Assembly (NCBI GenBank): GCA_964495085.1
Contig: CAZBUK010000011.1
Span: 844-64,843 of the forward strand
Length of the DNA: 64,000 nt
Source of the DNA: an uncultured Ignavibacteriales bacterium
GTDB taxonomy: Bacteria > Bacteroidota > Ignavibacteria > T3Sed10-11
Direction of reading: 5' to 3'
Made by a program: the position numbers and the translations under genes. Every line of letters begins with the position of its first letter. Within the stretch, counting starts at the first letter, position 1. The notes beneath the pieces were generated by a model, which worked only from the letters and a program-made list of their open reading frames with translations, was not told the DNA's origin and did not search any database. Of the stretch, positions 32,742 through 50,674 are shown piece after piece.

Positions 32742-33395
32742 ATGGGTCAGCCAGTAAGTATATTAATCGCCGATGATCACCCCGTGTTTCGGGAAGGATT
32801 GCTGAATATTCTCCAGAAGCGCAGAAACACAGGACCTGTCTATGAATCCGGCAACGGCGAAGAGGCGCTTGCTCTGATTCGTAAACATCATCCGGAAATC
32901 GTTTTGCTCGACATCGATATGCCGGGGTTGAACGGACTCGAAATCGCACGGACAGTTCAATCCGAAAATCTTCCATCCAGGATCATTATGCTGACAATGT
33001 ATAAAGAAGAGGACGTCTTCAACCGGGCGATGGACTATGGCGTATCGGGATTTGTCCTAAAGGAATCTGCCGTGACCGATCTGCTTCAGAGCATCTCGTT
33101 CGTGACAAGCGATAAATATTATGTAAGTCCGGTACTATCGGAATTCCTGATGCACCGCCTGCGAAGAGAGCAGAACTTCAACCTCTCACACCCGTCGCTC
33201 CATTTATTAACCGGTGCTGAGCGACGGATTCTCAAACTGATAGCCCTTATGAAAACGAGCAGGGATATTGCGGATGAGCTGTCCGTGAGTCCCCGCACCG
33301 TCGAAAATCACCGAATGAACATCTGCAATAAGCTCAACATACACGGCAGCCATGCCCTCATGAAATTCGCTCTCGAAAACAAATCATATCTTTGA
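32742..33395 (+). CDS. Two-component response regulator, NarL/LuxR family (REC + HTH_LuxR)
   Basis: VSILIADDHPVF..VLLDIDMPGLNG (phospho-Asp) receiver. C-terminal LuxR HTH (RRILKLIALMKTSRDIADELSVSPRTVENHRMNICNKL). Confidence 0.85.
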   Translation: MGQPVSILIADDHPVFREGLLNILQKRRNTGPVYESGNGEEALALIRKHHPEIVLLDIDMPGLNGLEIARTVQSENLPSRIIMLTMYKEEDVFNRAMDYGVSGFVLKESAVTDLLQSISFVTSDKYYVSPVLSEFLMHRLRREQNFNLSHPSLHLLTGAERRILKLIALMKTSRDIADELSVSPRTVENHRMNICNKLNIHGSHALMKFALENKSYL

Positions 33396-33656
33396 AGCTC
33401 GACGGATCTACCGGAGTACACGCAACGCTGCTTCAATCATTGTATACGTATCGAAAATTCCCCGCATTTAGAATTTCCGTGTTGTTAGCATGTCCCCGCC
33501 GATTATCTGACCGGATCGCTCCATATTAGTCCGGTTTTTCGGCGTAAACAAATTAGGTGGATCTACTCAGTCAAATCGGGTAATCATCTCTATTCCTTTT
33601 AATCATAGAACCTACCATCTTCGATAAAAACCGATTAACCTGGCGCTCACAGAAAT

Positions 33657-34010
33657 TTGAAATTATTAATCGTAGAAGATAACAGCAGTATGAGCGATCT
33701 TATCCGGGTGCTGCTCGAGGATGAGTTCGAAACCATACGCGAGATACAGGACGGGGATGAAGCTCTGAAGGAATTTACTGAACTTCATCCCGATTGGGTT
33801 ATCATGGACATCCAGATGAAACGATTGGATGGAATTAGCACAACCTCTCTTCTCAAGATGAAATATCCGGAAGCAAAAATTATCATTCTGACCAATTACC
33901 CGGACGGGGAGCTTCGCGCCGCCGCTCAGAAAGCGGGAGCGTTAGGATACGTGCTCAAGGAGAATATTTCCGAGGTCAGACAGATCATCCGGAATATGAA
34001 ATCCGGATAA
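33657..34010 (+). CDS. Stand-alone receiver (REC-only) response regulator, NarL-family-like
   Basis: TTG start (first start after the in-frame TAA). KLLIVEDN..VIMDIQMKRLDG..IIILT with no output domain. Confidence 0.7.
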   Translation: MKLLIVEDNSSMSDLIRVLLEDEFETIREIQDGDEALKEFTELHPDWVIMDIQMKRLDGISTTSLLKMKYPEAKIIILTNYPDGELRAAAQKAGALGYVLKENISEVRQIIRNMKSG

Positions 34011-34082: not shown

Positions 34083-35669
34083 ATGAGAACGAAGACTGCA
34101 TGTTTTCCGATTGCTGTGCTCATCCTGATGCTGCATGCCGTGATTCTTTATACTCAGGTGCCGCAGAAAATTTCATTCCAGGGGTATCTGACGGACGAAT
34201 CCAGCCTGCAGATGCTCGAAGACGGCGAATACTCCATGAGGTTTTCGCTCTATACGGACGAAGATCCGTCGACACCGCTCTGGACCGAAGAGCAGCAAGT
34301 ATCGGTGTTAAACGGAGTTTTCAACGTTCATCTCGGCGATGTTGAGCCGCTCATGCTTCCATTCGAAGTACCGTATTATCTGGGTATATCGATCGATGGC
34401 GGCGAGGAACTTTCGCCGCATATAGCTCTCGCCTCATCGCCATACAGCCTTCGTGCGGGCAATATAGACGATGGCCAGGTCGTGCGGAGTCTCAATGATT
34501 TACGGGATGACGTCGTTTTAGAGGCAGGCGAGAACATCTCGATCACGAGTGAGGAGAATGCCATCAGAATATCGGCGATCCTCGGAAACGATGTCGAGGA
34601 GGATGTGAATTGGAAGGCAGATGGTGACAATGTCTTTAATAAGAATACCGGAAACGTAGGTATCGGTACGGAGACGCCCGAGGCAAAGCTGGATGTACAG
34701 GGCGAATTGAGGGTTTCGGGCGGAGTGCGGATATCCGGAGGCAGCGCTGATGATGTGGATTTGTCGGGAACCGGTACAATTCTTTCCGTTACCACAACTG
34801 GAGCTAGCGCAACTGCCATATCCGGCAGGGCGGAGGGCAGTTTAAGCCCGGCTGGAGTATACGGAGTGAGCAACTCTTCAGGCGGCCGCGGGGTGTTCGG
34901 CGAAGCGACCCACGCGAGCGGTTCGACTGCCGGTGTTCGAGGTGTCACGGCTTCGAGCAACTCGAATGCGACCGGAGTTTTCGGTTTGGCAATTAGCGCT
35001 GATGCCGCTGGAGCAGGGGTGAAAGGCCAGAGCAACGGCATAACAGGTTACGGAGTGTGGGGGCAGGGAGGCACCGGCGGCACAGGTGTCCTGGGACAGA
35101 CACATTCTGCCACAAGTTATGGTGTATGGGCGTATAACAGCGGTACCGGAGTAGCTCTGCGTGCCGAGGGGAGCGGAACTCTGATCGAAGCATGGGATCT
35201 TTCGCCAGTCAACGTACGATTCAGGGTAGACAATAATGGAAATGTCACGGCTGACGGGACGTTCACCTCGCCCGCGGCGGATTTTGCGGAGATGCTGCCG
35301 GCTGCATCCGGTCTGGAGCCGGGTGATGTTCTGATAATCGGCAGGGAGGGACTGCTTGAGAAGAGCTCAAAGGCATTCGAATCGACAGTTGTCGGCGTTT
35401 ATTCGACCAAGCCGGCGTTTTTAGGGGGTGTTGAGATTCTAGAGGATCAGAATGATAAAATTCCCCTCGCCGTGCTCGGCATCGTCCCCGTCAAGGCAAG
35501 TGCGGGCAACGGCGCAATAATCCCGGGCGATCTTCTTGCAGCATCAGATATTCCCGGGCATGCAATGCGGGCAGGTTCAGACGCTCCGGTCGGCACGATC
35601 ATCGGCAAGTCAATGACCGGTCTTGAAGGAGGGACCGGAGTCATTCGGATGCTCGTCACTTTGCAGTAA
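34083..35669 (+). CDS. Exported paralogue 1 of a tail-fibre-like family: conserved N-domain, Gly-rich ~12-aa periodic repeats, distinct C-terminal domain
   Basis: Signal peptide then ISFQGYLTDE..DDGQVVRSLNDLRDDVVLEAGENISIT, shared with the ORFs at 36691, 37864 and 40472. One GNVGIGTETPEAKLDV motif. ~9 repeats of ..G.GV.G.s... AGGGAG RBS upstream. Confidence 0.7.
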   Translation: MRTKTACFPIAVLILMLHAVILYTQVPQKISFQGYLTDESSLQMLEDGEYSMRFSLYTDEDPSTPLWTEEQQVSVLNGVFNVHLGDVEPLMLPFEVPYYLGISIDGGEELSPHIALASSPYSLRAGNIDDGQVVRSLNDLRDDVVLEAGENISITSEENAIRISAILGNDVEEDVNWKADGDNVFNKNTGNVGIGTETPEAKLDVQGELRVSGGVRISGGSADDVDLSGTGTILSVTTTGASATAISGRAEGSLSPAGVYGVSNSSGGRGVFGEATHASGSTAGVRGVTASSNSNATGVFGLAISADAAGAGVKGQSNGITGYGVWGQGGTGGTGVLGQTHSATSYGVWAYNSGTGVALRAEGSGTLIEAWDLSPVNVRFRVDNNGNVTADGTFTSPAADFAEMLPAASGLEPGDVLIIGREGLLEKSSKAFESTVVGVYSTKPAFLGGVEILEDQNDKIPLAVLGIVPVKASAGNGAIIPGDLLAASDIPGHAMRAGSDAPVGTIIGKSMTGLEGGTGVIRMLVTLQ

Positions 35670-35750
35670 TAAAGCATAACCGTATGATTCCAGGCTTGAA
35701 TCTGCGATGTAATAGCATCAGGAATACTTTCGAATAATATGGAGGAACTC

Positions 35751-36647
35751 ATGCCAATGTTTACCTGGTCGGTCGTTTACACCGCAATATGCGTATGTGT
35801 TGCGGTTCTCTTTGCCTCGCAAGCGCGTGCGCAAGAGGGACTGACAGGGAGGATCGATGAACGCACGCCCGGCATATCATTCGCAGTCCCGGCCGGATGG
35901 ACCGCTTATAAAACGGAGGTTGGGTATCTGATCGCCTCGGAGACCGAGAAGGGCTTTGTTCTTGTGATGAGCCATGAGTTTAGTTCGATGAGCGAGTTAG
36001 AAAACGCTGCGCGTGAATCTATGAGTGATGATAACGGCACATCCCTGCGGCCGGATAGAGAACCGGAAAGATTTCTTTCCGCAGAATACGAAGGTATAGC
36101 GATGTACTATAAGGGGACCGTTGAATGGGTGGAAGCCCGAGCGTATGCGGTCGGTTTGATTTCGCCGTACGGCAGCGGCGTGACGATCCTCGCTGCCGTC
36201 GAGCCCCAGTCATTCACAGCAACATTTACAAGTACCGTGGACGATATCGCACGCGGGGTTGAATTCAGGCAACCCGAGCTACCTCCGGTCGATGAGCAAT
36301 GGAAAGCCGCATTAACCGGGATGCGTCTCACGTATATGCATACGTATTCAAGCGGCAGCTCGGGCGGTTTCTCAGACAGGATAGTTATTGATTTGTGTAC
36401 AGACGGCTCGTTTTCGTATTCCGGCAGCAGCAACCTGTCGATCGATACGGGAGGTGCGTACGGATACAGCCATGGAAAAAGCGGGGGAGCCGGAACGTGG
36501 GAGGTGTTGAACAATGGGGGACAGCCTGTATTGCGACTGATCTTTAACGATGGAACGGTCAGACAATACCGTATTTCATTGCAGGACGACCGGTTTTATC
36601 TCGACGATACAAGATATTTCAGGACTCACGATGCACCATGCAGGTAA
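35751..36647 (+). CDS. Hypothetical exported protein embedded in the paralogue cluster
   Basis: Signal peptide (MPMFTWSVVYTAICVCVAVLFASQARAQ), GGAGG RBS 5 nt upstream of ATG 35751 (the ORF is open from 35739). Gly/Ser-rich C-terminal half. No recognisable family. Confidence 0.55.
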   Translation: MPMFTWSVVYTAICVCVAVLFASQARAQEGLTGRIDERTPGISFAVPAGWTAYKTEVGYLIASETEKGFVLVMSHEFSSMSELENAARESMSDDNGTSLRPDREPERFLSAEYEGIAMYYKGTVEWVEARAYAVGLISPYGSGVTILAAVEPQSFTATFTSTVDDIARGVEFRQPELPPVDEQWKAALTGMRLTYMHTYSSGSSGGFSDRIVIDLCTDGSFSYSGSSNLSIDTGGAYGYSHGKSGGAGTWEVLNNGGQPVLRLIFNDGTVRQYRISLQDDRFYLDDTRYFRTHDAPCR

Positions 36648-36690
36648 ATGCATGCGGGTATTCTTTTATTCATAAAGCGAGGAAACGAAA

Positions 36691-37677
36691 ATGAAACGAA
36701 TGTCATTGTGTATGGGAATAATTCTCATGGCGATATCGGAAGCATTGTTATTCGGTCAGATACCTTACACCATCAGCTACCAGGGGTATCTGACAGATGA
36801 ATCCGGAACGCCGGTTTCCGATGGAGAATATAACATACAATTTTCGCTTTATACCGCAAATGATCCGCAAGAGCTTGTGTGGACGGAGATTCAATCAGTC
36901 GTCGTGACAAACGGTCTGTTCCATGTATATCTGGGAATTATCGAGCCGCTTTCGCCGGCTTTTGACGAGCAGTACTCCCTCGGAATTGCGATCGACGGAG
37001 GTGATGAGCTGTCACCGCGAACACCCCTCGCCTCATCTCCATACAGTTTACGCACCCGGGGGATCGATGACGGTCAGGTTGTGAAGAGTATCAACACTTT
37101 GAAAGACAGCGTCATACTTGAAGCGGGCGAGAATATATCCATCTCTGAGGAAGAGAACCGGATAATCATATCCGCTGCGGGAGGGAGTGAGAACGGAACT
37201 GAATTTCCGGAAGGCGGTGTAGTCCGTTCTATCAATGGACTAACCGATCATATCAATCTTGTCGGCGCAGACGGCGTGTCGGTCGGTTCCGTTGCCGATA
37301 CACTGTACATAAGCGCAGGTAATGCCCGGGTTATCTCCTCGGACTGGCAGTTATTTATAGGCAATAACTGGAGCGATGTGACAAACTTTTTTGGCAAGGA
37401 TCGAAGAACATACGAAATAGATGTACCGGAAATTACACAGAATGTTCTGGATCGAGGTATGGTACAGGTATCTGTAAGGTTCGGCGGCACTTCCAGTGTT
37501 ATACAGCCTTTACCCATCCTTCAATCGATAACTCAACAAAAGGAGCAACGTCTCGCATTTCATTTACGACTCGGGAAAATAGTGTTGGAATATTACAATA
37601 TCGGGGAATCGTCCGATCCGGGAACGATCAGCGGGGGAAGCAATCGCTATATGTATACGATCACCTCCGGGATATAA
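36691..37677 (+). CDS. Exported paralogue 2 of the tail-fibre-like family (short; distinct beta-rich C-terminal domain)
   Basis: Signal peptide + TISYQGYLTDESGTPVSDGEY..DDGQVVKSINTLKDSVILEAGENISIS, then a divergent ~190-aa C-terminal region. Confidence 0.7.
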   Translation: MKRMSLCMGIILMAISEALLFGQIPYTISYQGYLTDESGTPVSDGEYNIQFSLYTANDPQELVWTEIQSVVVTNGLFHVYLGIIEPLSPAFDEQYSLGIAIDGGDELSPRTPLASSPYSLRTRGIDDGQVVKSINTLKDSVILEAGENISISEEENRIIISAAGGSENGTEFPEGGVVRSINGLTDHINLVGADGVSVGSVADTLYISAGNARVISSDWQLFIGNNWSDVTNFFGKDRRTYEIDVPEITQNVLDRGMVQVSVRFGGTSSVIQPLPILQSITQQKEQRLAFHLRLGKIVLEYYNIGESSDPGTISGGSNRYMYTITSGI

Positions 37678-40471: not shown

Positions 40472-41935
40472 ATGAAGCACGTCCTTATGGTCGTCGCCTT
40501 GTCTGTCTGTTTTTGCATTGCCGAATCATCCGCCGGTACACCGGCAAAGATAACATACCAGGGTATGCTCATGGCTCAGAATGGCTTGCCGGTCCCAGAC
40601 AACAATTACAATATTACGTTCAGTCTCTATGCCGCGCCGGATGCGGTCGAGCCTGTATGGTCCGAAACCCAATCCGTGACGGTCGTGAAAGGTTTATTCA
40701 ACGCCATACTCGGAAGCAGTGTTCCTTTCTCGGAGGAGTTCGATCAGGCATGTTGGCTCGGTCTGAAGCTCGGCGATGAGCCGGAAATGACTCCACGGAT
40801 AGAATTCACCTCCGTCGCGTATTCATTGAAAAGCCGGACGGTTGATGACGGTGCGATTGTCACTTCGAAGATCGCTAACTCCGCTATAACGGCGGAAAAG
40901 TTAGCTGTTGTTGAAGGGCCGAGTTCGGTAAGCCAGGTGCTCACCTGGAACGGGACTGGTCTTTCCTGGCAGGTTCCTCCCGGGGAGGGCGGATTACTGC
41001 TTCCGTATTCAGGGACGGCAAATCAGGGGGGTGCTGCTTTCGAGGTCAGCAATACGAACAGTGATGCGCTTCGCGGATCTACACAGTTCGGAAATGGTGT
41101 ATTCGGTTTCAGCACGGGAGGCGGAAACGGAATAAGCGGGTATAGTGAGACCGGGTTCGGTGTTATCGGATTTACAAACACCGGAATCTCCGGGATCTAC
41201 GGTGAGTCAAAGATAAACGGCGGCGCTGGTATATGGGGAAAAAATACGGCCGGTGCGGGTTCTTCAGGTATCTGGGGAGAAAGCCCCGCTGGAATGGGCG
41301 TAAGAGGGAACAGCACGTCCGGTACGGGTGTATATGGGAGTAGTAATTCCGGTTATGGAGTACGGGGACTTGTTTCGCAGAGCGGCACCGGAGTCTATGG
41401 GGAGAATACAAGCAACAGTGCAGGCGCGGGAGTGCAGGGGAGGGCAGACCACGGCAGCTCCGTCGGCGTACTCGGAATGAGCACGGCCGGAACCGGAGTC
41501 AGGGGATCGAGCAGCAGCAGTACCGGCGTTTCCGGGTCGTCTGTATCCGGCGTCGGTGTCCATGGACAGGGCCCCGTCGCAATGAAAGCAGAAGGGAATA
41601 CACTCCAGGATATCGGCAGCGGGGGATGGATGAAAGCGATGCTTCTCGTGAGGGATATAGGATTGAATGCACCTTACATTGAAAGGTGTTATAACGGGGT
41701 CACCGGAGCTACCGAAAGCAATTGTGGATTTAGTATCAGCCAGCCCGGGGGTGCAGGTCCCGTAAAAATAACCGCTCCGTTCAAAGTAGTCGATCGGTTC
41801 TTTTCGGTAACCTTGCTTCAGTCTGCGGTTCACGATATTGTTCCCAGCATTTTTTTCGACCAGGGAGATCTTTTCGGCAATACCGTGGTGGTCGCGACGG
41901 GTACGGATGCAAGCTTCTATCTGCTGATATACTGA
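40472..41935 (+). CDS. Exported paralogue 4 of the tail-fibre-like family (divergent N-domain; ~20 Gly-rich 11-12-aa repeats)
   Basis: The ORF is open from 40376, but Met33 (MKHVLMVVALSVCFCIAESSA, GGAAGG RBS 6 nt upstream) gives a signal peptide followed by KITYQGMLMAQNGLPVPDNNYNITFSLY.. homologous to the other three N-domains. Long G.GV.G.S repeat tract. Confidence 0.65.
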   Translation: MKHVLMVVALSVCFCIAESSAGTPAKITYQGMLMAQNGLPVPDNNYNITFSLYAAPDAVEPVWSETQSVTVVKGLFNAILGSSVPFSEEFDQACWLGLKLGDEPEMTPRIEFTSVAYSLKSRTVDDGAIVTSKIANSAITAEKLAVVEGPSSVSQVLTWNGTGLSWQVPPGEGGLLLPYSGTANQGGAAFEVSNTNSDALRGSTQFGNGVFGFSTGGGNGISGYSETGFGVIGFTNTGISGIYGESKINGGAGIWGKNTAGAGSSGIWGESPAGMGVRGNSTSGTGVYGSSNSGYGVRGLVSQSGTGVYGENTSNSAGAGVQGRADHGSSVGVLGMSTAGTGVRGSSSSSTGVSGSSVSGVGVHGQGPVAMKAEGNTLQDIGSGGWMKAMLLVRDIGLNAPYIERCYNGVTGATESNCGFSISQPGGAGPVKITAPFKVVDRFFSVTLLQSAVHDIVPSIFFDQGDLFGNTVVVATGTDASFYLLIY

Positions 41936-42629: not shown

Positions 42630-42983
42630 ATGAAAAATTTATTTCCGATGTTATTGTTTTTATCAGTTTCATTTCTTATGGTAACCTGTTCCCCCCGAAA
42701 GGAATCATCTATCGAACAGCCCGGGAAAATGGATCCATCGCTGCGTCTGCTGATATCCCGTTACGAACATGATCGGAGCGACGAAGTTATCGAGGTGCTC
42801 ATTGAACTCCACCGCGATCCTGACGGCGAAGCGCAGATACTGTTCCGGGAGTACAATCTCGAACTCGACGGCATGGAGGGAAAAATCCTTGCCGCGCGCG
42901 GCAGAGTTTCCGATATACGGCGAATAACTGCCTCCTCGCTCGTGAAACATATCGCCTTGAGCCAGAAAAGACAACCGTTATAA
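42630..42983 (+). CDS. Free-standing subtilase pro-region-like protein (putative propeptide/I9-type inhibitor or chaperone), lipoprotein-like signal
   Basis: Start taken at ATG 42630 (MKNLFPMLLFLSVSFLMVTCS signal; the ORF is open from 42582). The mature part aligns to the N-terminal pro-region of the downstream S8 protease: GKMDPSLRLLIS vs GKIDASLRLVMS, and ..VKHIALSQKRQPL vs ..RFIELAARRKPL. Confidence 0.6.
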   Translation: MKNLFPMLLFLSVSFLMVTCSPRKESSIEQPGKMDPSLRLLISRYEHDRSDEVIEVLIELHRDPDGEAQILFREYNLELDGMEGKILAARGRVSDIRRITASSLVKHIALSQKRQPL

Positions 42984-43015: not shown

Positions 43016-46000
43016 ATGGGTCTTTTAAGAAGCTTTCTCCGGAGAATATCGCGAATTTCGGGCGGTGGAGCGATTGCGGCCGTATGCTTAATCGCTGCCG
43101 GTACCTCGTTCGGTCAGACCAATGAAAAACTGGTCAGGGCATTGAGATCGGGTATGTTTTCCGGTGAATTTCAGATCAACCAACAGGCATATTCTCAGGA
43201 AGGGTTGCTCCGGCCGCAGGCTCACGGGAAAATCGACGCTTCGCTTCGGCTGGTCATGTCGCAGAACCACAGGATGATGAAGGCACGCCCGGGCGATTCC
43301 TACTTACAAGGTATCAGCCCGTATGCATTATCGGTCTCAGGTGACGATGATATACGCGCGGATGTTTTTATCCGAACAGAAGCCGGATTTTCTGCCGCTG
43401 TGCTGACCTCGCTCGGCGCCACGAGGATCGTGGAAGCGGGAGGCATTGTCAGTGCATCCGTACCTCTCGGCGGCATCGGGGCGTTGGCGGAGGATCCGAA
43501 CGTCCGGTTTATCGAACTGGCAGCCCGTCGAAAGCCCCTCAATGATGCCGGGAGGACCGATATCCGGGCGGATCTCGTCCACCAGGGGTTCAACCTCCCT
43601 GCCGCGTATAAGGGCGAGGGAGTGATTGTCGGCGTGCTCGACAGCGGCATCGATTTCACTCATCCGGATTTCTCGGATGAGAACGGAACACGAATACAAC
43701 ATCTGCTTGAATACACTACGACCGGTCAACTCGAGTGGTCGAAGACTCAGATCGATACGGACCCTACCTCGGTAACTCAGGGCGATCTCGACGACGGGGG
43801 AGGCCATGGAACGCATGTCGCAGGAAGCGCAACAGGCGGCGGCAAGCTTAACTCGATCTACACGGGCGTCGCTCCGAACGCGGATATAATCTTTGTGAAG
43901 GGAATGATCGACGGCGGCTTCAGCGATAACGCAGTCTTCGGCGGTTGCCAGTATATATTTGAAAAGGCTGATGCACTGGGTAAACCGGCGGTTATCAACC
44001 TGAGTCTCGGTAGTAATTTCGGACCGATCGACGGCTCGAGCTTATATGAGCAGGCATTATCGAACCTGACCGGACCCGGAAAGATCATCGTAGCGGCCGC
44101 CGGCAACGAGGGTTTTGATTTGATTCACGCAGGCGCTGTCTTACCGGCCTCGACGCAGAACGTCACGCTTCTCATAAGCGATAATCCGTCTCAGCTTTTT
44201 ATCAATATGTGGTACACGCCAGGGGTGATCTCTGATGTCGCGATCGGGGCTTTCGCTATCGATGAATCGGACGAACCCATCTATCTGGGGAACACCTCTT
44301 TCGTACCAGTCGGTTCGTTCATGAATCACACGCCGTTAACATCTGATGAAATCATACTCGGACAAATCGGAATCGACGCTCAGACAACGGCGGATCCCAG
44401 AAACGGCGACGGAAATATTATATTCGAGATCATCGGTGATCCGGATCAGGGAGTCGATATCTCGGAAATAATCTGGGTAGTGATCTATAACTCATCGTCA
44501 TCAGGCCGGTTCGATATGTGGTCATTCGGCGGAGAATTCTGGCCGGTAGTCGAAGGAATCCCGGGCGTGAACGAGATACCCGGCGATTCGCACAGCACGA
44601 TCGGTACACCGGCATCGGCCCACAAGATCATCGCAGTCGGTTCGTACGTGACGAAGACCACGTTTACCAATATCGATAATCAGATGCTCCAGTGGCGGAA
44701 TCCGGATCCGACACGACAGACCAACGATCTGGTGGTTCCGTCGATCGGACAGAAATCGTACTTCAGCAGCATCGGACCTACTCGGGACGGACGAATCGCG
44801 CCCGATATTTCGGCCCCCGGCGAGTTGATATTCTCTCCGCTTTCATCTCAGCTTGCTGAGGGAACGGGGTATCAACGTATACTCGTGGCTGAGGGGGGAA
44901 ATTATATCGGTTCTCAGGGGACCAGCATGGCATCTCCGCATGTAGCCGGAGTCGTCGCGCTCATGCTTCAGGTTCGGCCTGATCTCACATACGAGCAGAC
45001 TCTGGATATACTCCGGGAAACCGCCCGGGTCGATTCGTGGACCGGCTCGGTTCCGAACCACTCCTTCGGCGCAGGGAAGATCGACGCACATGCTGCGGTT
45101 ATGAATGCTCTCGGACTGAACGGCGGACCGGGTACGCCGACTACACTCAGATATTTCGATCCCGAAAGCGAACAGCGAACCTGGATTATCGATACCACAT
45201 TACCAATCGACAGCGGTTTCGTCTTCGGAACGAACAGATATTCGGATATGTCCAAAGCCACCGCATTTTCGCTCCCCGGCGGGGAGACCGAAGGAAGGAT
45301 TTCTGAAGTTAAAATCTGGTTCTCATATCGGAGAGACGGATTAACCGATCAGACATACAGCGTGGAGGTCTTTAACGGTTCGGCATCGTCCGGTCCTACC
45401 GGTGTGACTTTGTCGACGAAGGAATTCATGCTCGCAAACGTGAATGCGGATGCGGATCTACAGACGCCCGAGCAGGCGACGGTGCATACGTTCGATATGC
45501 CTGTTTCTGTGGGATCGGAATTTTTCGTCTCGGTTAATTTCGGCAGTTACGGAAGCGACGATTTCGGGAACGCCGGCATAGCGGCCACCGATCAGCTGGG
45601 GAGCAGGGTGCCCGAAGTATGGGAGCAATGGAGCGATGGAGAATGGCATAACCTCTCCGATGCATGGTTCGGCTCGGGAGCCGCTCCGGGTACGGGCATC
45701 GACGGATGGCATATGTGGATGGAAGTCGTTCTCGAAGGTCCGGTGAGTGTCCCGAATGACGGCTATACACTTCCGGTTTCTATTTCGCTCGAACAGAATT
45801 ATCCCAATCCGTTTAATCCGTCCACGGCTATCAGGTATTCGATTCCCTCGCCTTCGCGGGTGTCGCTCCGGGTATACGATATACTCGGACGGGTGGTGGC
45901 GGACCTGATCAACGGGGATGTTGAAGCCGGGACGCACACCGTCCACTTCGACGGCTCGTCTGTGAGCAGCGGATTATATTTCTACCGGCTCGAGACGGAT

Positions 46001-46039
46001 TCCAAGACCATCGTCAGACATATGATGCTGGTTAAGTAA
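43016..46039 (+). CDS. Subtilisin-like serine peptidase (S8 family) with N-terminal pro-region and T9SS C-terminal sorting domain
   Basis: Catalytic triad motifs VGVLDSGID (Asp), GHGTHVAGSA (His), GTSMASPHVAGV (Ser). The C-terminus NYPNPFNPSTAIRYSIP..LRVYDILGRVV..GLYFYRLE..RHMMLVK is a T9SS CTD. Confidence 0.88.
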   Translation: MGLLRSFLRRISRISGGGAIAAVCLIAAGTSFGQTNEKLVRALRSGMFSGEFQINQQAYSQEGLLRPQAHGKIDASLRLVMSQNHRMMKARPGDSYLQGISPYALSVSGDDDIRADVFIRTEAGFSAAVLTSLGATRIVEAGGIVSASVPLGGIGALAEDPNVRFIELAARRKPLNDAGRTDIRADLVHQGFNLPAAYKGEGVIVGVLDSGIDFTHPDFSDENGTRIQHLLEYTTTGQLEWSKTQIDTDPTSVTQGDLDDGGGHGTHVAGSATGGGKLNSIYTGVAPNADIIFVKGMIDGGFSDNAVFGGCQYIFEKADALGKPAVINLSLGSNFGPIDGSSLYEQALSNLTGPGKIIVAAAGNEGFDLIHAGAVLPASTQNVTLLISDNPSQLFINMWYTPGVISDVAIGAFAIDESDEPIYLGNTSFVPVGSFMNHTPLTSDEIILGQIGIDAQTTADPRNGDGNIIFEIIGDPDQGVDISEIIWVVIYNSSSSGRFDMWSFGGEFWPVVEGIPGVNEIPGDSHSTIGTPASAHKIIAVGSYVTKTTFTNIDNQMLQWRNPDPTRQTNDLVVPSIGQKSYFSSIGPTRDGRIAPDISAPGELIFSPLSSQLAEGTGYQRILVAEGGNYIGSQGTSMASPHVAGVVALMLQVRPDLTYEQTLDILRETARVDSWTGSVPNHSFGAGKIDAHAAVMNALGLNGGPGTPTTLRYFDPESEQRTWIIDTTLPIDSGFVFGTNRYSDMSKATAFSLPGGETEGRISEVKIWFSYRRDGLTDQTYSVEVFNGSASSGPTGVTLSTKEFMLANVNADADLQTPEQATVHTFDMPVSVGSEFFVSVNFGSYGSDDFGNAGIAATDQLGSRVPEVWEQWSDGEWHNLSDAWFGSGAAPGTGIDGWHMWMEVVLEGPVSVPNDGYTLPVSISLEQNYPNPFNPSTAIRYSIPSPSRVSLRVYDILGRVVADLINGDVEAGTHTVHFDGSSVSSGLYFYRLETDSKTIVRHMMLVK

Positions 46040-46058: not shown

Positions 46059-47684
46059 ATGAATCGTCGTACAATCATCCTGTCTCGAAGTCGATTGCTG
46101 CGTACCGTTCTTACCGGCTTCCTGATGTCTGCGTCGGTCACGGCATCGTCGCAGGTTTTTATTCCGGATTTTCCCGCGAACGACGCGGAGCACAACACCA
46201 ACGGTCTCTGGCGTCCGAGAATTGCCGCCGCAGCGGACGGGAACTTCTCGATCGCATGGGAGGATTACAGCGACCGGCCGGGGATACACCCCAACAGCAC
46301 CGGCCGGTCACAGATTGCAGTACGGCGTTTCTTGCCGGATGGTAGTCCGCATGGTCCGCTCAGTTTTTTCCAGGGAGAGAGCAGCACTCTTTCGCTCTGG
46401 CTGTTCGACTTCCTCGAGCACGCGGAGATCAAATATCTCGGCGACGGAACGCTCGTACTGTTGATGCAGCATACCGGCAGATTGTCGATCGGAACCGACG
46501 ATGTGGCATCGTCGGAAATAACGCTGGGTGCGATCGATCCGGAAGGTCAGATCATCAAATTGTCTCAATTCGGCTCGAACCTACAATACCCGTTGATATT
46601 TACCTCGTCGAGCCGCCAGTATAATCCGAGGCTCGCACTCACGCCCGACAATGTCATAGTCGCCGCTCTCGAAGAATCCTCCTACGACAGCGAATTCCGG
46701 AACGCCGCGTTTCGGGCGCTCGACGCATCGTTAAACGAGCTCATTACCCGGGAGATTCCGCACAGCGACGGTGTCGGAGAGGCGCCGCATATACTGGCGG
46801 ATGTCGCAACCAACGGACAATTGTTCGCCGTTGTTTGGCAGGACGGAAGGTTCAGCGACCAGTGGAGTGTCGGGATTCAGTTCTATACGGACGACGGGAT
46901 TCTGGGTGCGAATCGCAGGATAAACGAAACCGAGCCCGGAACCGCATATGCTCTCCGGCCGAGCGTCGCGATGAATGGGTCCGGGCGCTCGGTCGCGGTC
47001 TGGTTCGACTCTCGAAACGGCAATCAGCTCTTCGGGCAGATTTTCGATTCCGCAGGTGAACCTGCCGGCGGTAACTTCCAGATATCGGATACACCGGCAG
47101 GGGGAGATATATATTTCCGACCTGAAGTAACGATTCGCGACGACGGCAGCTTCATGGTAGTCTGGACTGACAGCACCTCCGTTCAACACGCATTCCGTGC
47201 ACGCGGAAGACAATTCGACCCTCACGGAATACCCCGAGGCGATCCGTTCCTCATTCCGGATATAGACGTATATTCCGGTTACCCGCACGTTGCCACCGAC
47301 GGCGCTGCATATTACTGCGTCTGGCTTGACGATCGACTCGGCATGAACCACGTTAATGCGTATGCGAAGAAAGTCGACGCGGTTATCACCTATGCTGCGA
47401 ACGAGCGATCCACGATGCCCGATTCTTTCGTACTCCATCCTCCTTATCCCAATCCCTTCAATCCGGAGACCACGGTCACGTTCGAGATCCCCGAAGAGGG
47501 CCGCGTCAGGTTATCCGTCCACGATCTTCTCGGGAGGAACGTAATGGATCTCACCGATTCGTATTATCAGGCGGGATTGCATTCGGTATTGTTCTCCGGC
47601 TCGAGACTCTCAAGCGGGATCTATGTGCTGCGGCTGGAATTCGGACCCTTCGCCGAAACAAGATCCGTGTTTTTGATCAAGTAG
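46059..47684 (+). CDS. T9SS-sorted protein with six ~55-aa beta-propeller-like repeats (hypothetical)
   Basis: Signal peptide. Repeated P.vA..g.G.f.vvW.D..(G).lfGq.F pattern (e.g. GNFSIAWEDYS, QLFAVVWQDGR, RSVAVWFDSRNGNQLFGQIFD, SFMVVWTDST, AYYCVWLDDR). The C-terminus PYPNPFNPETTVTFEIPEEGRVRLSVHDLLGRNV..GIYVLRLE is a T9SS CTD. Confidence 0.7.
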   Translation: MNRRTIILSRSRLLRTVLTGFLMSASVTASSQVFIPDFPANDAEHNTNGLWRPRIAAAADGNFSIAWEDYSDRPGIHPNSTGRSQIAVRRFLPDGSPHGPLSFFQGESSTLSLWLFDFLEHAEIKYLGDGTLVLLMQHTGRLSIGTDDVASSEITLGAIDPEGQIIKLSQFGSNLQYPLIFTSSSRQYNPRLALTPDNVIVAALEESSYDSEFRNAAFRALDASLNELITREIPHSDGVGEAPHILADVATNGQLFAVVWQDGRFSDQWSVGIQFYTDDGILGANRRINETEPGTAYALRPSVAMNGSGRSVAVWFDSRNGNQLFGQIFDSAGEPAGGNFQISDTPAGGDIYFRPEVTIRDDGSFMVVWTDSTSVQHAFRARGRQFDPHGIPRGDPFLIPDIDVYSGYPHVATDGAAYYCVWLDDRLGMNHVNAYAKKVDAVITYAANERSTMPDSFVLHPPYPNPFNPETTVTFEIPEEGRVRLSVHDLLGRNVMDLTDSYYQAGLHSVLFSGSRLSSGIYVLRLEFGPFAETRSVFLIK

Positions 47685-47752
47685 TTCACGCCATCTCTAC
47701 CAGCGAGATCGGAGATTGAATTCTTCATGGAACCGCCAAGGAATGAGATCCA

Positions 47753-50674
47753 TTGAAACGTAACTTCCCGATCGGAGCGGCTCTGCTGCTCGTCTTCATC
47801 ATCGTCAGGATGGAGGGCCAGACATATCCGTTCAAACTGTTTACCGTGGATGAGGGATTACCTCAATCAACCGTATATGCAGTATTTCAGGATTCGAGGG
47901 GGTATATCTGGACCGGTACGCAGGGCGGACTATCGCGATTCGACGGACTCGGCTTCACCACATACACGACCGCTGACGGATTGACGAACGATCGGGTTCT
48001 CCACATTTCCGAAGACCGGTACGGTCATATTTGGATCGGGACGAACGACGGCGTCGCCCGATTCGATGGAAACGGCTATGAAGGATATTCCAACGGCATC
48101 GGATCCGTCTTCTCCATTCTGTCGATCGAATCGGGAGCAGTACTGATCGGCTCGGCGGAGGGAGTTGCGGTACTTCCGCACGGCGTTCTCGATACAATCA
48201 TCTTCATACCGGAAATATCTTCTCCCGTTTATTCGCTCTACGGACTAAATGACGGACGAATCCTTGCAGGAACAGGACATGGATTGTTCGGAATAACTAT
48301 CGACGATGGGTTCTCGGTATCGATCGATACACTACAGGTGTCCGGACCGGTAATGTGCATAGCGGAGGACGGCGAGGGAAGGATCTGGGCGGGTACCGAC
48401 GGCGAAGGCGTTGCGGTACTCGAAGGAGACCGGGTGAGCAGACTTACCGTCGAAGACGGTCTTGGAAATAATAAGATCTTTTCGATGCTTGTCGATACTT
48501 CGGACAGGGTATGGGTGGGCTCGTACGGCAGAGGAGCGAATGAAATCGTCGGAAAAGCGGTTGTCGGAAGTTACCTGACGGCGCAGGGGCTCCCGAGCAA
48601 TGTCGTAAGATCGATCATACAGGATCGCGAAGGGAATATCTGGTTTGCTACGTACGGCGGGCTGGCGATGCTCAGACATACCGGGTTGAATTACTTCGAT
48701 ACCTCGCAGGGATTCACAAACGCCATAGTTATGGCGATAATGCGCGACAGGTCGGCAACCCTTTGGATCGGCACGTATGGCGGTGGAATCACCAGGCTGC
48801 ATGGCGATGCGGCGATACCGTTTAAAACCGAACATGGACTTTCGCACAACGTCGTGCGGTCGATGCTCGAGGACAGTAAGGGTCGGATCTGGATCGGCAC
48901 ACATCGCGGAGTGACCATGCTGGACGGTGAATCGATGCGTCGCTATACAGTCCGCGACGGGCTCCCGGGGGATGTTATTCTCTCCATCGCAGAGGACCGG
49001 GGGGGAAGGATCTGGTTCGGAACGTTCGGAACGGGTTTGGCATATCTTGCGGGAGGTACATTTTCATCTTTCACGGTTAAAAACGGGCTCGGGCATAACA
49101 CGGTTCGCACGATTCGGGAAGATGCCCTCGGCAGGATATGGATCGGTACCGACAACGGTTTGACGAAATTTGAAGACGGTTCCTTTACGAATTATACCGC
49201 CGAACATGGACTCATCCACAATACGATCCGTTCCCTTTCGACCGGCCGCGACGGTTCGCTATGGATTGCTACCGACGGCGGAGGCGTCGCGATACTGCGG
49301 GATGATAAGTTTTCATCACTGACCGTTCAGGACGGACTTACGAATAATGTCTGTTTCCTGATCATACATGACTGGGATGACAAGGTCTGGGTCGGAACGA
49401 ACAGGGGACTCAATAAAATAAGTTTCGATCCCTCCGGGAAGCTGCCGGCGGACATAACGACGATTTCGATGCGCGACGGACTTCCATCGAACGAATTCAA
49501 CACGGGCGCCGCACATCTCGACGATGACGGAACCCTCTGGTTTGGCACCGTTGCCGGTCTTGTGAAGGTCGGCCGGGATTTCACAGCCGGCACCTCTATT
49601 CCCCCGGCTATCCAGTTGACGAAAGTGAAGGTATTCGAACAAGATCAGGTCCTCGATGCTCCGCTCAGATTCTCCCACGATGAGAATTATCTTAAATTCG
49701 AATATGCGGGATTATTCTATTCCTCCCCCGAAGAGGTCGAGTATAGATACAGATTGTCGGGCCTCGATACGGATTGGCAGCTCTCATCGGTTCGCAGCGT
49801 CCAGTATACCTCATTGCCGCCGGGCCGCTATACGTTCGAGGTGACTGCACGGAGCGTAAGGAGCGAATGGAATCCCAGTCCTGCGGTTGTGCACTTTCGT
49901 ATTGTACCCCCGTATTGGTCAACATGGTGGTTCCGGATAATTTCGCTGACCTTGATCGTAGCGATGATCGGGGTTCTATATACCCGGCGTATACGGAAAT
50001 TAACGAGAGAACGGCTTGAACGCGAGGAGTTTTCCAGACGGTTGATTGATTCCCAGGAGCAGGAACGGAAACGGATAGCGGGAGAACTTCACGACAGCCT
50101 GGGACAGAATCTGCTTATCATAAAGAATAGAGCGCTGATGGGGCTGCACCCGCCCGCCTCCGAGAATGCTCCGGGTCAGCTAGAATATATCTCCGATATT
50201 GCGTCGCAGGCGATACACGAAGTGAGGGAAATATCGTACAACTTGCATCCGTATCAGCTTGAGCGGCTCGGTCTCAAAGAGGCAATAGATTCAGCGACCC
50301 GGAAGATTGCATCGGCATCCCGGATCAGATTTCAGACTTCGCTCGATGAATTGAACGGGAAATTTTCGCGTGAAGTTGATCTGAATATCTATCGGATCGT
50401 GCAGGAATGCTTGAACAACATAGTGAAGCATTCCGGCGCGGATGAAGTGACGATGACTGTGAATATGGCAGGCGGTTTGCTCGAGATCCGGATATCGGAT
50501 AACGGGTGTGGATTTTCCAAGAGGAAGTACGCCGCATTGCCGCACGGGGACGGCACGGGATTGGGACTAAAGAGTATCGCGGAACGGGTAAGGATCATTG
50601 ATGCCGCGTTCGATATTCAATCCGAGCCGGATAAGGGGACGACGGTGACGGTGAGTATTCCCGTTCGACCATGA
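47753..50674 (+). CDS. Sensor histidine kinase with periplasmic two-component-regulator propeller (Reg_prop) repeats, Y_Y_Y domain, TM helix and HisKA_3 + HATPase_c
   Basis: Signal peptide. Many G.L.RFDG..F..YT..DGL repeats. TM (WWFRIISLTLIVAMIGVLY). H-box ELHDSLGQNL (HisKA_3, the family that partners NarL/LuxR regulators). ATP-binding GTGLGLKSIAERV. Confidence 0.85.
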   Translation: MKRNFPIGAALLLVFIIVRMEGQTYPFKLFTVDEGLPQSTVYAVFQDSRGYIWTGTQGGLSRFDGLGFTTYTTADGLTNDRVLHISEDRYGHIWIGTNDGVARFDGNGYEGYSNGIGSVFSILSIESGAVLIGSAEGVAVLPHGVLDTIIFIPEISSPVYSLYGLNDGRILAGTGHGLFGITIDDGFSVSIDTLQVSGPVMCIAEDGEGRIWAGTDGEGVAVLEGDRVSRLTVEDGLGNNKIFSMLVDTSDRVWVGSYGRGANEIVGKAVVGSYLTAQGLPSNVVRSIIQDREGNIWFATYGGLAMLRHTGLNYFDTSQGFTNAIVMAIMRDRSATLWIGTYGGGITRLHGDAAIPFKTEHGLSHNVVRSMLEDSKGRIWIGTHRGVTMLDGESMRRYTVRDGLPGDVILSIAEDRGGRIWFGTFGTGLAYLAGGTFSSFTVKNGLGHNTVRTIREDALGRIWIGTDNGLTKFEDGSFTNYTAEHGLIHNTIRSLSTGRDGSLWIATDGGGVAILRDDKFSSLTVQDGLTNNVCFLIIHDWDDKVWVGTNRGLNKISFDPSGKLPADITTISMRDGLPSNEFNTGAAHLDDDGTLWFGTVAGLVKVGRDFTAGTSIPPAIQLTKVKVFEQDQVLDAPLRFSHDENYLKFEYAGLFYSSPEEVEYRYRLSGLDTDWQLSSVRSVQYTSLPPGRYTFEVTARSVRSEWNPSPAVVHFRIVPPYWSTWWFRIISLTLIVAMIGVLYTRRIRKLTRERLEREEFSRRLIDSQEQERKRIAGELHDSLGQNLLIIKNRALMGLHPPASENAPGQLEYISDIASQAIHEVREISYNLHPYQLERLGLKEAIDSATRKIASASRIRFQTSLDELNGKFSREVDLNIYRIVQECLNNIVKHSGADEVTMTVNMAGGLLEIRISDNGCGFSKRKYAALPHGDGTGLGLKSIAERVRIIDAAFDIQSEPDKGTTVTVSIPVRP

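What the first reader, a model, noticed from the sequence alone, without database searches (positions are those of the whole stretch)
32742..50674. Accessory island of exported/T9SS proteins bracketed by an orphan LuxR-type regulator pair and an orphan HisKA_3 propeller sensor kinase
No histidine kinase sits next to the response regulators at 32742 (REC+LuxR) and 33657 (REC only). No response regulator sits next to the kinase at 47753 (Reg_prop/Y_Y_Y periplasmic sensor with HisKA_3, the subfamily that phosphorylates NarL/LuxR regulators). All nine genes between them are on the same strand and encode exported proteins. They are the four paralogues, a hypothetical secreted protein, a small T9SS protein, a pro-region-like protein, a T9SS S8 protease and a T9SS propeller protein. 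This looks like a single signal-responsive surface/secretion module whose kinase and regulator have been split to the two ends. The extra REC-only protein could act as a phosphate sink. Such an arrangement is not a described system.
Basis: inference. Interest (0 to 1): 0.65.

Follow-up and report, generated by a model that had tools for sequence, protein, structure and literature searches.

The report
Rearranged sensor system flanking fibre genes
The two regulators and the kinase at the ends of this gene cluster are one ordinary three-gene bacterial sensing system whose gene order was rearranged in this lineage, so that it now brackets genes for phage-tail-like surface fibres and a secreted protease that it probably switches on.

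Summary
REC+GerE (32742) and REC-only (33657) regulators sit 14 kb upstream of a Reg_prop/Y_Y_Y/HisKA_3 kinase (47753), with nine co-directional exported-protein genes between them. There are no other two-component genes in the 64 kb.

They are not true orphans. In relatives the same three proteins are adjacent, in the order kinase, regulator, REC-only. In one such locus the kinase is 47% identical to the window's and both regulators 57%. This order holds in most of about 70 loci from at least five phyla. Only the window's clade has the permuted order: regulator, REC-only, cargo, kinase.

A 16-bp palindrome, TnnGTAS-NN-STACnnA, is conserved between the two regulator genes. Its core is exact in 21 of 53 loci (0.6 expected). 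It marks a probable regulator-dependent promoter for the REC-only gene and the cargo.

The four paralogues are relatives of Bdellovibrio MAT fibres. A lipoprotein, S8 protease and beta-propeller cassette also occurs elsewhere with fibres but without the sensing genes.

The cluster is not a transferred island. The core is conserved in relatives and only the fibre number varies.

Verdict: a rearranged variant of a widespread but apparently uncharacterised sensing cassette. Moderate interest.

The parts
32742..33395 (+). RR1: NarL/LuxR-type response regulator (REC + GerE HTH), the probable output regulator
   Evidence: Pfam Response_reg 4e-26 and GerE 8e-13. D11/D12/D57/T85/K107 are present. It is 57% identical to the RR1 that overlaps the kinase gene in L010 and 56% to that in L091. 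It is only 27% identical to a non-cassette LuxR regulator in L008.
33554..33569 (.). Operator-like palindrome TAGGTGGATCTACTCA in the RR1-RR2 spacer. It is a degenerate copy of the family consensus TnnGTAS-NN-STACnnA and is followed by a conserved block (to about 33605).
   Evidence: It aligns positionally with TAAGTAGAACTACTTA in L001, L003, L006 and L010. The core GTASNNSTAC is exact in 21 of 53 RR1-RR2 spacers against 0.6 expected. Of 27 exact 16-mer matches in 1.39 Mb, 20 lie in that spacer and none in genes. It is the only site with at most 1 mismatch in any intergenic region of the cluster.
33657..34010 (+). RR2: stand-alone receiver (REC-only), the conserved third member of the signalling cassette
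   Evidence: Pfam Response_reg 9e-23, no output domain. E7/D8/D51/T79/K101 are present. It is 57% identical to the REC-only gene following RR1 in L010. A REC-only gene follows RR1 in 47 of 62 evaluable loci.
34083..35669 (+). Fibre paralogue F1 (528 aa): signal peptide, MAT-like N-domain, Gly-rich stalk, unique C-terminal tip
   Evidence: FibN profile hit 6e-49. NCBIfam NF053851 Bdello_MAT_N 3.7e-5. Absent from L001-L003.
35739..36647 (+). Exported 302-aa protein of unknown function, not a paralogue. Found only in the window among the loci examined.
   Evidence: No Pfam, NCBIfam or PHROG hit. No counterpart in L001-L010.
36691..37677 (+). Fibre paralogue F2 (328 aa)
   Evidence: FibN 8e-51. 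NF053851 1.1e-5. In the AlphaFold model the N-domain (residues 28-120) has pLDDT above 90 and the rest is poor.
37864..40065 (+). Fibre paralogue F3 (733 aa)
   Evidence: FibN 2e-50. NF053851 2.3e-5. PHROG tail-fibre families 1.4e-7 and 2.2e-6 on residues 461-669.
40472..41935 (+). Fibre paralogue F4 (487 aa from Met33 of the ORF that opens at 40376). This is the conserved core fibre of the clade.
   Evidence: 71-73% identical over its full length to the single fibre of L001 and L003, which start at this Met. FibN 3e-49.
42016..42546 (+). Small T9SS cargo protein (176 aa)
   Evidence: Por_Secre_tail 1e-8, TIGR04183 2e-10. 56% identical orthologues in L001, L003 and L005.
42630..42983 (+). Lipoprotein that is a stand-alone copy of the S8 propeptide (the ORF opens at 42582). 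Probable in-trans chaperone or inhibitor of the protease.
   Evidence: hhalign of its family against residues ~70-176 of the S8 family: probability 95.7%, E 8.5e-9. An invariant Cys follows the signal sequence. It always lies directly upstream of the S8 gene.
43016..46039 (+). T9SS-secreted subtilase (S8), 1007 aa
   Evidence: Peptidase_S8 1e-48 and Por_Secre_tail 9e-9. Best solved relative is CspB 4i0w, 1e-28. The D, H and S motifs are visible in the alignment.
46059..47684 (+). T9SS-secreted beta-propeller protein (541 aa), a conserved partner of CTD-bearing proteases
   Evidence: CTD hit. AlphaFold pLDDT 82.8, pTM 0.77. Foldseek hits to CylK and sialidase propellers at 1e-11 to 1e-9. It lies next to an S8 in L001-L007 and L098, in the same cluster as an S8 in L099, and next to an M4 protease in L097.
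47753..50674 (+). Sensor histidine kinase: N-terminal hydrophobic anchor, periplasmic Reg_prop propellers + Y_Y_Y, a TM segment near residues 723-745, HisKA_3 (H780), HATPase_c
   Evidence: Pfam. H-box ELHDSLGQ and the TM segment. Orthologues at 59-62% identity sit in the same position. Those at 40-47% are immediately followed by RR1 and RR2.

Best explanation
The kinase (47753), the NarL-type regulator RR1 (32742) and the stand-alone receiver RR2 (33657) form one cognate three-protein phosphorelay. They belong to a widespread cassette whose ancestral gene order is kinase, RR1, RR2, then secreted cargo.

In the window's clade the order has been circularly permuted to RR1, RR2, cargo, kinase. 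A likely route is tandem duplication of the locus followed by loss of the outer copies, or a transposition of the kinase gene.

Proposed mechanism; every step below is inferred, none is shown:
1. The periplasmic propeller/Y_Y_Y domain senses an extracytoplasmic ligand, probably a glycan or surface polymer.
2. The kinase phosphorylates RR1.
3. RR1~P binds the conserved palindrome in the RR1-RR2 spacer.
4. This drives a transcript that starts with RR2 and runs through the cargo. The cargo is the MAT-like surface fibres, a small T9SS protein, the propeptide-like lipoprotein, the T9SS S8 protease and the T9SS propeller.
5. In this clade the transcript may also run into the kinase gene, which would add positive feedback.
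6. RR2, co-induced with the cargo, competes for phosphoryl groups (sink or threshold) or relays the signal to a non-transcriptional target.

The cargo itself is a separable adhesion-plus-protease module: fibres with swappable tips, and a protease cassette.
For: Shown by comparison:
- These are the only two-component genes in 64 kb, and the subfamilies match (HisKA_3 with NarL).
- In L010 the kinase orthologue (47% identical) overlaps RR1 (57%) by 8 nt and is followed by RR2 (57%). L091, L008 and L093 show the same adjacency.
- RR1 directly follows the kinase in 64 of 71 loci, and REC-only follows RR1 in 47 of 62. The loci come from Acidobacteriota, Ignavibacteriota, Calditrichota, Bacteroidota and Verrucomicrobiota.
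- The window's RR1 is 38-57% and its RR2 26-57% identical to cassette members. RR1 is 27% identical to a non-cassette LuxR regulator.
- The permuted order, with the same core cargo, is conserved in three further lineages at about 60% identity, L001-L007.
- The palindrome core is exact in 21 of 53 RR1-RR2 spacers (0.6 expected) and within 1 mismatch in 37 of 53 (12 expected). It lies mostly 75-135 bp upstream of RR2.
- Of 27 exact 16-mers in 1.39 Mb, 20 fall in that spacer, which makes up 0.9% of the sequence. The other 7 are all intergenic, 5 of them just upstream of RR2 or the cargo. None is genic.
- The symmetric flanking positions co-vary.
- The cassette is nearly always followed by large co-directional exported proteins. 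These include FibN fibres in five distant loci (L010, L025, L027, L068, L074), T9SS-CTD proteins, and FG-GAP, Ig, Kelch or PKD adhesin-like proteins.
- Gaps in the window cluster are short: 20-81 bp at most junctions, with 187 bp (F2/F3), 262 bp (RR1/RR2) and 406 bp (F3/F4) as the exceptions.
Against: - There is no expression, binding or phosphotransfer data.
- The window's own palindrome is degenerate: 1 core mismatch and half-sites only 4/7 complementary.
- The promoter and terminator scans are at chance level, so the transcript structure is unknown.
- The 406-bp F3/F4 gap and the 187-bp F2/F3 gap could hold independent promoters.
- In L001-L007 the housekeeping flanks (lyase, rhomboid, SpoU, Mrp) are syntenic too. 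Conservation inside that clade therefore does not by itself prove functional linkage.
- The protease cassette and the fibres occur without any two-component genes in L097-L101.
- Only about 5 of some 50 distant cassettes carry fibre cargo.
- A 6-bp stem with a 4-nt loop hairpin cannot be formally excluded as the reason for the palindrome.
Confidence: 0.6

Rival explanations
1. The three signalling proteins are cognate, but they control only RR2 or targets elsewhere. The fibre and protease genes are a self-contained T9SS/adhesin cluster with its own promoters, and it merely sits between the signalling genes after a rearrangement.
For: The cassette of propeptide lipoprotein, S8 and propeller, with or without fibres, exists with no two-component genes in L097-L101. 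The F2/F3 and F3/F4 gaps are long. Only one operator-like site lies in the cluster.
Against: Across phyla the cassette is followed by co-directional exported cargo, and extra operator copies sit directly in front of cargo genes in L028, L052, L054 and L056. Fibre genes follow RR2 directly in L010, L068 and L074.
Confidence: 0.2
2. The kinase and the regulators are unrelated orphans, each with a partner elsewhere in the genome. Their placement at the two ends is coincidental.
For: They are 14 kb apart, and the window shows only 64 kb of the genome. The family is highly paralogous: 7675 homologues at E below 1e-20, and L008 carries a second such kinase/regulator pair.
Against: Orthologues of all three are adjacent in L010, L091, L008 and L093 and in most of about 70 other loci. 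The nearest canonical locus by kinase identity is also the nearest by RR1 and RR2 identity. The three genes stay together, in the same permuted order, in L001-L006.
Confidence: 0.15
3. A horizontally acquired accessory island inserted into a pre-existing kinase-regulator operon and split it.
For: The number of fibre genes differs between relatives: one in L001-L003, one truncated fibre plus a secreted propeller in L005 and L006, four plus an extra gene in the window.
Against: The ancestral order is kinase, RR1, RR2, cargo. An insertion would therefore give kinase, insert, RR1, RR2, not the observed RR1, RR2, cargo, kinase. There is no compositional anomaly and no tRNA, no integrase-like gene was seen among the genes scanned around the cluster, and no flanking direct repeats were found. 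The core cargo is conserved at 56-73% identity, apart from the fast-evolving propeptide lipoprotein at 31-37%.
Confidence: 0.05

Closest known systems
NarX/NarL-type two-component systems (HisKA_3 kinase with a REC+GerE regulator that binds inverted heptamers)
   Same: It has a HisKA_3 H-box (H780), HATPase_c, and a REC+GerE regulator scoring 1e-38 to NarL models. The candidate operator is an inverted repeat of two 7-bp halves separated by 2 bp and contains a TAC core. The comparison with NarL sites rests on my own knowledge.
   Different: The sensor is a large periplasmic double-propeller/Y_Y_Y domain, not a four-helix-bundle nitrate sensor. A third, REC-only gene is an obligatory member. In the half-sites the TAC lies on the inner side, the opposite orientation to the NarL 7-2-7 site. 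The genes are not adjacent in this lineage.
Bacteroides hybrid two-component systems (HTCS) of polysaccharide utilisation loci
   Same: The same periplasmic sensor architecture, Reg_prop repeats plus Y_Y_Y. This suggests a glycan-type ligand.
   Different: An HTCS is a single polypeptide with HisKA, HATPase, a fused REC and an AraC HTH. Here the kinase is HisKA_3 with no fused receiver or DNA-binding domain, and the output is a separate LuxR-type regulator. There are no SusC/SusD genes.
One-kinase/two-regulator 'phosphate sink' circuits (modelled in PMC4214558; for example CheA with two CheY proteins)
   Same: One kinase gene, one output regulator and one receiver-only protein with all phospho-acceptor residues intact.
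   Different: Sink behaviour is untested. Here the receiver-only gene lies downstream of the putative regulator-dependent operator. It would therefore be induced by the pathway it drains, giving negative feedback.
Bdellovibrio bacteriovorus MAT (mosaic adhesive trimer) fibres (PMC10769870)
   Same: Signal peptide, a conserved ~130-aa beta-rich N-domain, then a stalk and a variable C-terminal tip, in multiple tandem paralogues. Of 62 family members, 57 hit NF053851 Bdello_MAT_N as their only non-tip family. The N-domain has no PDB structural homologue, as that paper reports for MATs. Close relatives in L098 end in Peptidase_S74, like the S74 MAT subgroup.
   Different: All scores are below the NCBIfam cut-off (20-25 bits for the window's four paralogues, against 60). 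The host is a T9SS-bearing FCB-group bacterium, not a known predator. The window copies lack S74. The genes are linked to a two-component cassette and to a T9SS protease cassette. Trimerisation and surface display are untested.
PorX/PorY regulation of type IX secretion
   Same: A two-component system next to T9SS cargo genes.
   Different: The similarity to PorX is weak and confined to the receiver domain (RR1 4e-11... precisely 9.6e-12, 44 bits against a cut-off of 300). No PglZ domain is present, and the kinase architecture differs. No T9SS machinery genes were identified among the genes scanned in the cluster.
Subtilase propeptides and I9-type propeptide-like inhibitors
   Same: The 133-aa protein is homologous to the protease's own N-terminal pro-region and is always encoded just upstream of it.
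   Different: It is a separate lipoprotein, while the protease also keeps its own propeptide. There is no Pfam Inhibitor_I9 hit.

Membership tests
HisKA_3 / NarL-type two-component system | Kinase with a HisKA_3 dimerisation/phosphoacceptor domain, conserved His, and HATPase_c | tested here: met
   PF07730 1e-11 and PF02518 3e-17. H780 lies in ELHDSLGQ and is invariant in 12 orthologues.
HisKA_3 / NarL-type two-component system | Regulator with a receiver domain (conserved Asp) and a GerE/LuxR HTH | tested here: met
   PF00072 4e-26 and PF00196 8e-13. D57, T85 and K107 are present.
HisKA_3 / NarL-type two-component system | Kinase and regulator are a cognate pair (normally adjacent genes) | tested here: inconclusive
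   Not adjacent in the window. Orthologues are adjacent or overlapping in L010, L091, L008 and L093, and in 64 of 71 wider loci.
HisKA_3 / NarL-type two-component system | Specific phosphotransfer from kinase to regulator | not testable with these tools
   Needs in vitro phosphotransfer profiling.
Bacteroides-type hybrid two-component system (HTCS) | Periplasmic Reg_prop propellers plus Y_Y_Y sensor | tested here: met
   PF07494 2e-61 (7 stretches) and PF07495 8e-16.
Bacteroides-type hybrid two-component system (HTCS) | Receiver and AraC-type HTH fused to the kinase in one polypeptide | tested here: not met
   The protein ends with HATPase_c at residue 972 of 973. There is no REC or HTH hit.
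MAT fibre superfamily (Bdellovibrio) | Signal peptide followed by the conserved ~130-aa beta-rich N-terminal domain | tested here: inconclusive
   All four paralogues hit NF053851 only, at E 1e-5 to 3e-4, below the 60-bit cut-off. 57 of 62 family members hit it, best 2e-10. No direct structural comparison with a MAT N-domain was possible because afdb50 was unavailable.
MAT fibre superfamily (Bdellovibrio) | Variable, swappable C-terminal tip domains on a common N-domain | tested here: met
   The paralogues align only over about 130-170 N-terminal residues and have unrelated C-termini. Family members carry Collar, BclA_C, collagen or S74 ends.
MAT fibre superfamily (Bdellovibrio) | C-terminal Peptidase_S74 chaperone-protease (S74 subgroup only) | tested here: not met
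   No S74 hit in the four window paralogues, so they would be of the non-S74 type. The four L098 relatives do have PF13884.
MAT fibre superfamily (Bdellovibrio) | Trimeric intertwined beta-prism stalk; surface display | not testable with these tools
   The monomer AlphaFold model is poor beyond residue 125. Needs multimer modelling, EM or localisation.
T9SS cargo | C-terminal Por_Secre_tail sorting domain | tested here: met
   Met for 42016, 43016 and 46059. Not found in the four fibres, the 302-aa protein or the lipoprotein, which therefore use another route.
Horizontally acquired genomic island | Deviant composition, tRNA or integrase boundary, absence from close relatives | tested here: not met
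   GC 0.49-0.56 against flanks of 0.50-0.55. No tRNA. No long flanking repeats. The core genes are present in L001-L007.
Phosphate-sink (one kinase, two receivers) circuit | A second receiver-only protein with an intact phospho-acceptor pocket, encoded with the kinase/regulator pair | tested here: met
   RR2 has D8, D51, T79 and K101. A REC-only gene is present in 47 of 62 loci directly after RR1, and nearby in most others.
Phosphate-sink (one kinase, two receivers) circuit | The receiver-only protein drains phosphoryl groups from the kinase or regulator | not testable with these tools
   Needs phosphotransfer kinetics.

The most novel reading that the evidence does not exclude
The trio (propeller/Y_Y_Y-HisKA_3 kinase, NarL-type regulator, REC-only protein) with its TnnGTAS-NN-STACnnA operator is a widespread and so far undescribed plug-in regulatory cassette. 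Across at least five phyla it switches on interchangeable large surface adhesins. In this FCB-group lineage it has captured, and been permuted around, a Bdellovibrio-MAT-like fibre repertoire plus a T9SS protease cassette. That would make the cluster a signal-induced cell- or substrate-recognition and degradation apparatus, possibly used against other microbes.
Probability: 0.3. Interest if true: 0.65.

Novelty: new variant of a known kind. Interest (0 to 1): 0.4.

Why it matters
- The work turns two apparent orphans into a testable cognate trio.
- It shows that this trio belongs to a very common cassette for which my limited full-text searches found no description.
- It provides a concrete candidate operator and regulon for that cassette, namely the REC-only gene plus the adjacent surface-protein cargo.
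- It extends relatives of the Bdellovibrio MAT fibres to T9SS-bearing environmental bacteria. There the fibres are genetically tied to a secreted protease, a propeptide-like lipoprotein and a propeller.
- If the regulatory link is real, the operator motif could be used to predict which adhesins are signal-controlled in Acidobacteriota, Ignavibacteriota, Calditrichota and relatives.

Tried and rejected
- Exact-sequence look-ups of the window's kinase and RR1 found no record, so the source genome and its taxonomy could not be retrieved. Cluster look-up gave no names.
It was useful for the family picture but found no additional permuted loci.
- The metagenome scan with the S8 protease found only sorting-domain matches.
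- The sigma-70 promoter and terminator scan was at chance level.
- No Rfam family was found in 32-51 kb.
- The Foldseek afdb50 library was unavailable. The PDB search with the fibre model gave only generic Ig-like hits above E 0.01.
- No conserved element was found upstream of the kinase gene.
- Pairwise BLAST of the 133-aa protein against the protease gave only a 13-residue match. The relationship needed profile-profile comparison.
- The listing of HTH sequences against half-site types suggests co-variation but is confounded by phylogeny, so I do not count it as evidence.
- The other operator-like sites in the window with 1 mismatch (34657, 47907, 48131, 56707) are genic and near chance expectation: 6 observed against 2.4 expected.
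- Literature searches for Reg_prop+HisKA_3, Y_Y_Y+HisKA_3 and propeller+LuxR found no description of the trio.

Full report
**1. What is in the window**

- RR1 (32742-33395) is REC+GerE.
- RR2 (33657-34010) is REC only.
- The 973-aa protein at 47753-50674 has seven Reg_prop repeats, Y_Y_Y, HisKA_3 and HATPase_c.
- Both receivers keep the acidic pocket, the phospho-acceptor Asp, the Thr and the Lys. The kinase has H780 in an ELHDSLGQ H-box. It also has an N-terminal hydrophobic anchor and a second membrane segment near residues 723-745, so the propellers are periplasmic.
- A phmmer scan of every six-frame ORF of at least 60 aa found no other receiver or kinase in the 64 kb.

Between the ends lie nine + strand genes with N-terminal signal sequences. 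The signal sequences were judged by eye.

The region has flank-like GC, no tRNA and no Rfam hit. No long DNA repeats were found.

**2. The 'orphans' are one cognate trio**

The kinase has homologues at 59-62% identity whose contigs show the same layout. That layout is a divergent TPR-CHAT gene, then RR1, RR2, one to three unannotated proteins, a small T9SS protein, a ~118-aa protein, an S8-CTD protease, a CTD protein and the kinase. A convergent beta-eliminating lyase, rhomboid, SpoU and Mrp genes follow.

The next tier of homologues is decisive.

- In L010 the kinase is 47% identical. It overlaps by 8 nt a REC+GerE gene that is 57% identical to the window's RR1. A REC-only gene 57% identical to RR2 follows.
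- L091 (47%), L008/L009 (40%) and L093 (41%) show the same adjacency.
- A second LuxR-type regulator in L008 is only 27% identical to RR1.

A profile scan of species-representative genomes returned 80 loci at 23-42% identity, from Acidobacteriota, Ignavibacteriota, Calditrichota, Bacteroidota and Verrucomicrobiota. Where the contig allows a judgement:

- 64 of 71 loci have REC+GerE directly after the kinase;
- 47 of 62 have a REC-only gene directly after that;
- most of the remainder have one within a few kb or on the opposite strand.

The window's RR1 and RR2 are 38-57% and 26-57% identical to these cassette members. The canonical locus nearest by kinase identity is also nearest by both regulators.

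The ancestral unit is therefore kinase, RR1, RR2. The window's clade alone has RR1, RR2, cargo, kinase. A simple insertion cannot produce that order. It is a circular permutation, and how it arose is inference.

**3. A conserved operator between RR1 and RR2**

The RR1-RR2 spacer is unusually long, 120-260 bp in the close set. It aligns across the permuted and canonical loci around a perfect 7-2-7 palindrome, TAAGTAGAACTACTTA, followed by a conserved block.

Across 53 non-redundant spacers:

- the core GTASNNSTAC is exact in 21 (0.6 expected from shuffles);
- it is within one mismatch in 37 (12 expected);
- it lies mostly 75-135 bp upstream of the RR2 receiver domain.

The outer positions are T...A. 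The two positions inside them change symmetrically between lineages, for example TAAGTAG/CTACTTA, TAGGTAG/CTACCTA, TCCGTAG/CTACGGA and TGAGTAC/GTACTCA.

Exact matches to TNNGTASNNSTACNNA in all 1.39 Mb of fetched DNA number 27.

- 20 are in this spacer, which makes up 0.9% of the sequence.
- The other 7 are all intergenic. Five of them lie immediately upstream of RR2 or the first cargo gene.
- None is inside a gene.

A 2-nt centre argues for a dimeric DNA-binding protein rather than a hairpin. The obvious candidate is the GerE-type RR1 encoded next to it. That assignment is inference.

The window's copy (33554-33569, TAGGTGGATCTACTCA) is degenerate. It is, however, positionally homologous and is the only such site in any intergenic region of the cluster.

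**4. What the cargo is**

*The four paralogues.* They share only a signal peptide and a ~120-130-aa domain, then diverge. Each hits a single NCBIfam model, NF053851 Bdello_MAT_N, at 1e-5 to 3e-4. Of 62 family members, 57 hit it, best 2e-10.

Caulton et al. (PMC10769870) describe exactly this plan for the 21 Bdellovibrio MAT fibres. Those have a conserved ~130-aa beta-rich domain after the signal peptide, trimeric stalks and swappable tips. They form S74 and non-S74 subgroups, and their N-domain has no PDB homologue.

The evidence here fits that plan.

- The fibre model has a confident N-domain (pLDDT above 90) and no PDB match at E of 1e-3 or better.
- Family members end in Collar, BclA_C, collagen or S74 domains.
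- F3 hits phage tail-fibre PHROGs.

F4 is the conserved fibre of the clade, 71-73% identical to the single fibre of L001 and L003. F1-F3 and the 302-aa protein are extra in the window.

*The protease cassette.*

- The 133-aa protein is a lipoprotein homologous to the S8 protease's own pro-region.
- The S8 has its catalytic motifs.
- The 541-aa CTD protein is a beta-propeller.

*This cassette is separable from the signalling genes.*

- In L098 the lipoprotein, S8 (58% identical) and propeller (56%) are followed by four tandem fibres that combine the same N-domain with a C-terminal Peptidase_S74. No two-component genes lie within 21 kb.
- In L099-L101 the cassette sits among other T9SS cargo.
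- In L097 the propeller partners an M4 protease instead.

*The trio is likewise separable.* Elsewhere it is followed by quite different large exported proteins: T9SS-CTD, FG-GAP, He_PIG, HYR, Kelch+Big_3_5, Calx-beta+PKD and PEP-CTERM types. In five distant loci it is followed by fibre genes with this N-domain.

**5. Most likely mechanism**

The phosphorelay components are shown by sequence. Cognate status is strongly supported by comparison. Everything else is inferred.

1. Ligand binding to the periplasmic propellers activates the kinase.
2. RR1~P binds the palindrome and activates a promoter whose first gene is RR2 and which reads into the cargo.
3. RR2 acts as an induced sink or threshold element, a design analysed in PMC4214558, or as a relay.
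4. In the permuted clade the kinase gene lies at the 3' end of this unit, only 69 bp after the propeller gene. Induction might therefore raise kinase levels, which would be positive feedback.
5. The output is a set of surface fibres with different tips plus a secreted protease system. This is an adhesion and degradation function whose target is unknown.

**6. Comparison with known systems, and novelty**

It is a NarL-class two-component system by domain content. It is not a Bacteroides HTCS, because there is no fused receiver or AraC domain. It is not PorXY.

My full-text searches for the domain combination found no description of the trio. That search was limited.

The cluster is not an accessory island.

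What is mildly new:

- the family-wide operator;
- the consistent REC-only third member;
- the cassette's association with swappable surface-protein cargo;
- MAT-like fibres linked to a T9SS protease cassette outside predatory bacteria.

I rate it a new variant of a known kind, with interest 0.4.

Noticed in passing
window 29121-32237 (-): A 1038-aa TPR + CHAT (caspase-like) protein is encoded divergently from RR1, across a 504-bp spacer. The same gene occupies this position in L001-L003. Its relation to the signalling cassette is unknown.
   Followed up: partly
window 27625-29022 (+): A 465-aa protein with an RHS-repeat hit and a T9SS sorting domain lies just upstream of the CHAT gene. It is another T9SS cargo gene outside the stated interval.
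   Followed up: no
L006 1745-3895 (split in L005 at 1388-3537): Between RR2 and the fibre gene these relatives encode a 716-aa secreted protein. Its body resembles the kinase's own periplasmic Reg_prop propellers (28% identity over about 700 aa) and it ends in a T9SS sorting domain. It could be a secreted decoy or co-sensor. It appears frameshifted in L005.
   Followed up: partly
L098 11875-21472: Four tandem fibres (741, 672, 720 and 1002 aa) combine the MAT-like N-domain with a C-terminal Peptidase_S74. They lie directly after an orthologous cassette of lipoprotein, S8 and propeller, with no two-component genes nearby.
   Followed up: yes
L097 5997-11638: A homologue of the propeller protein (39% identical) follows an M4 (thermolysin-type) T9SS protease and a 141-aa protein. 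The propeller family therefore seems to be a general partner of CTD-bearing proteases.
   Followed up: partly
L028 14134 and 21575; L052 14148; L054 14088; L056 7746: Extra exact copies of the TnnGTAS-NN-STACnnA palindrome sit directly upstream of cargo genes in Acidobacteriota loci. This suggests more than one regulated promoter per cassette.
   Followed up: partly
window 53797-53812: A one-mismatch operator-like site (TCCGTACGACGACGAA) lies in the spacer between the SpoU methylase gene and the Mrp antiporter operon. At this stringency 2.4 sites are expected by chance in the window, so it may be meaningless.
   Followed up: no
window 40066-40471: The 406-bp non-coding gap before the conserved fibre F4 is the longest in the cluster. 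It contains a 2-mismatch operator-like sequence at 40173 and could hold an independent promoter.
   Followed up: no
L005 4235-4765 versus L006: The small T9SS protein gene present in L005, and in the window at 42016, is missing from the otherwise near-identical L006. This shows strain-level gain and loss within the cargo region.
   Followed up: no
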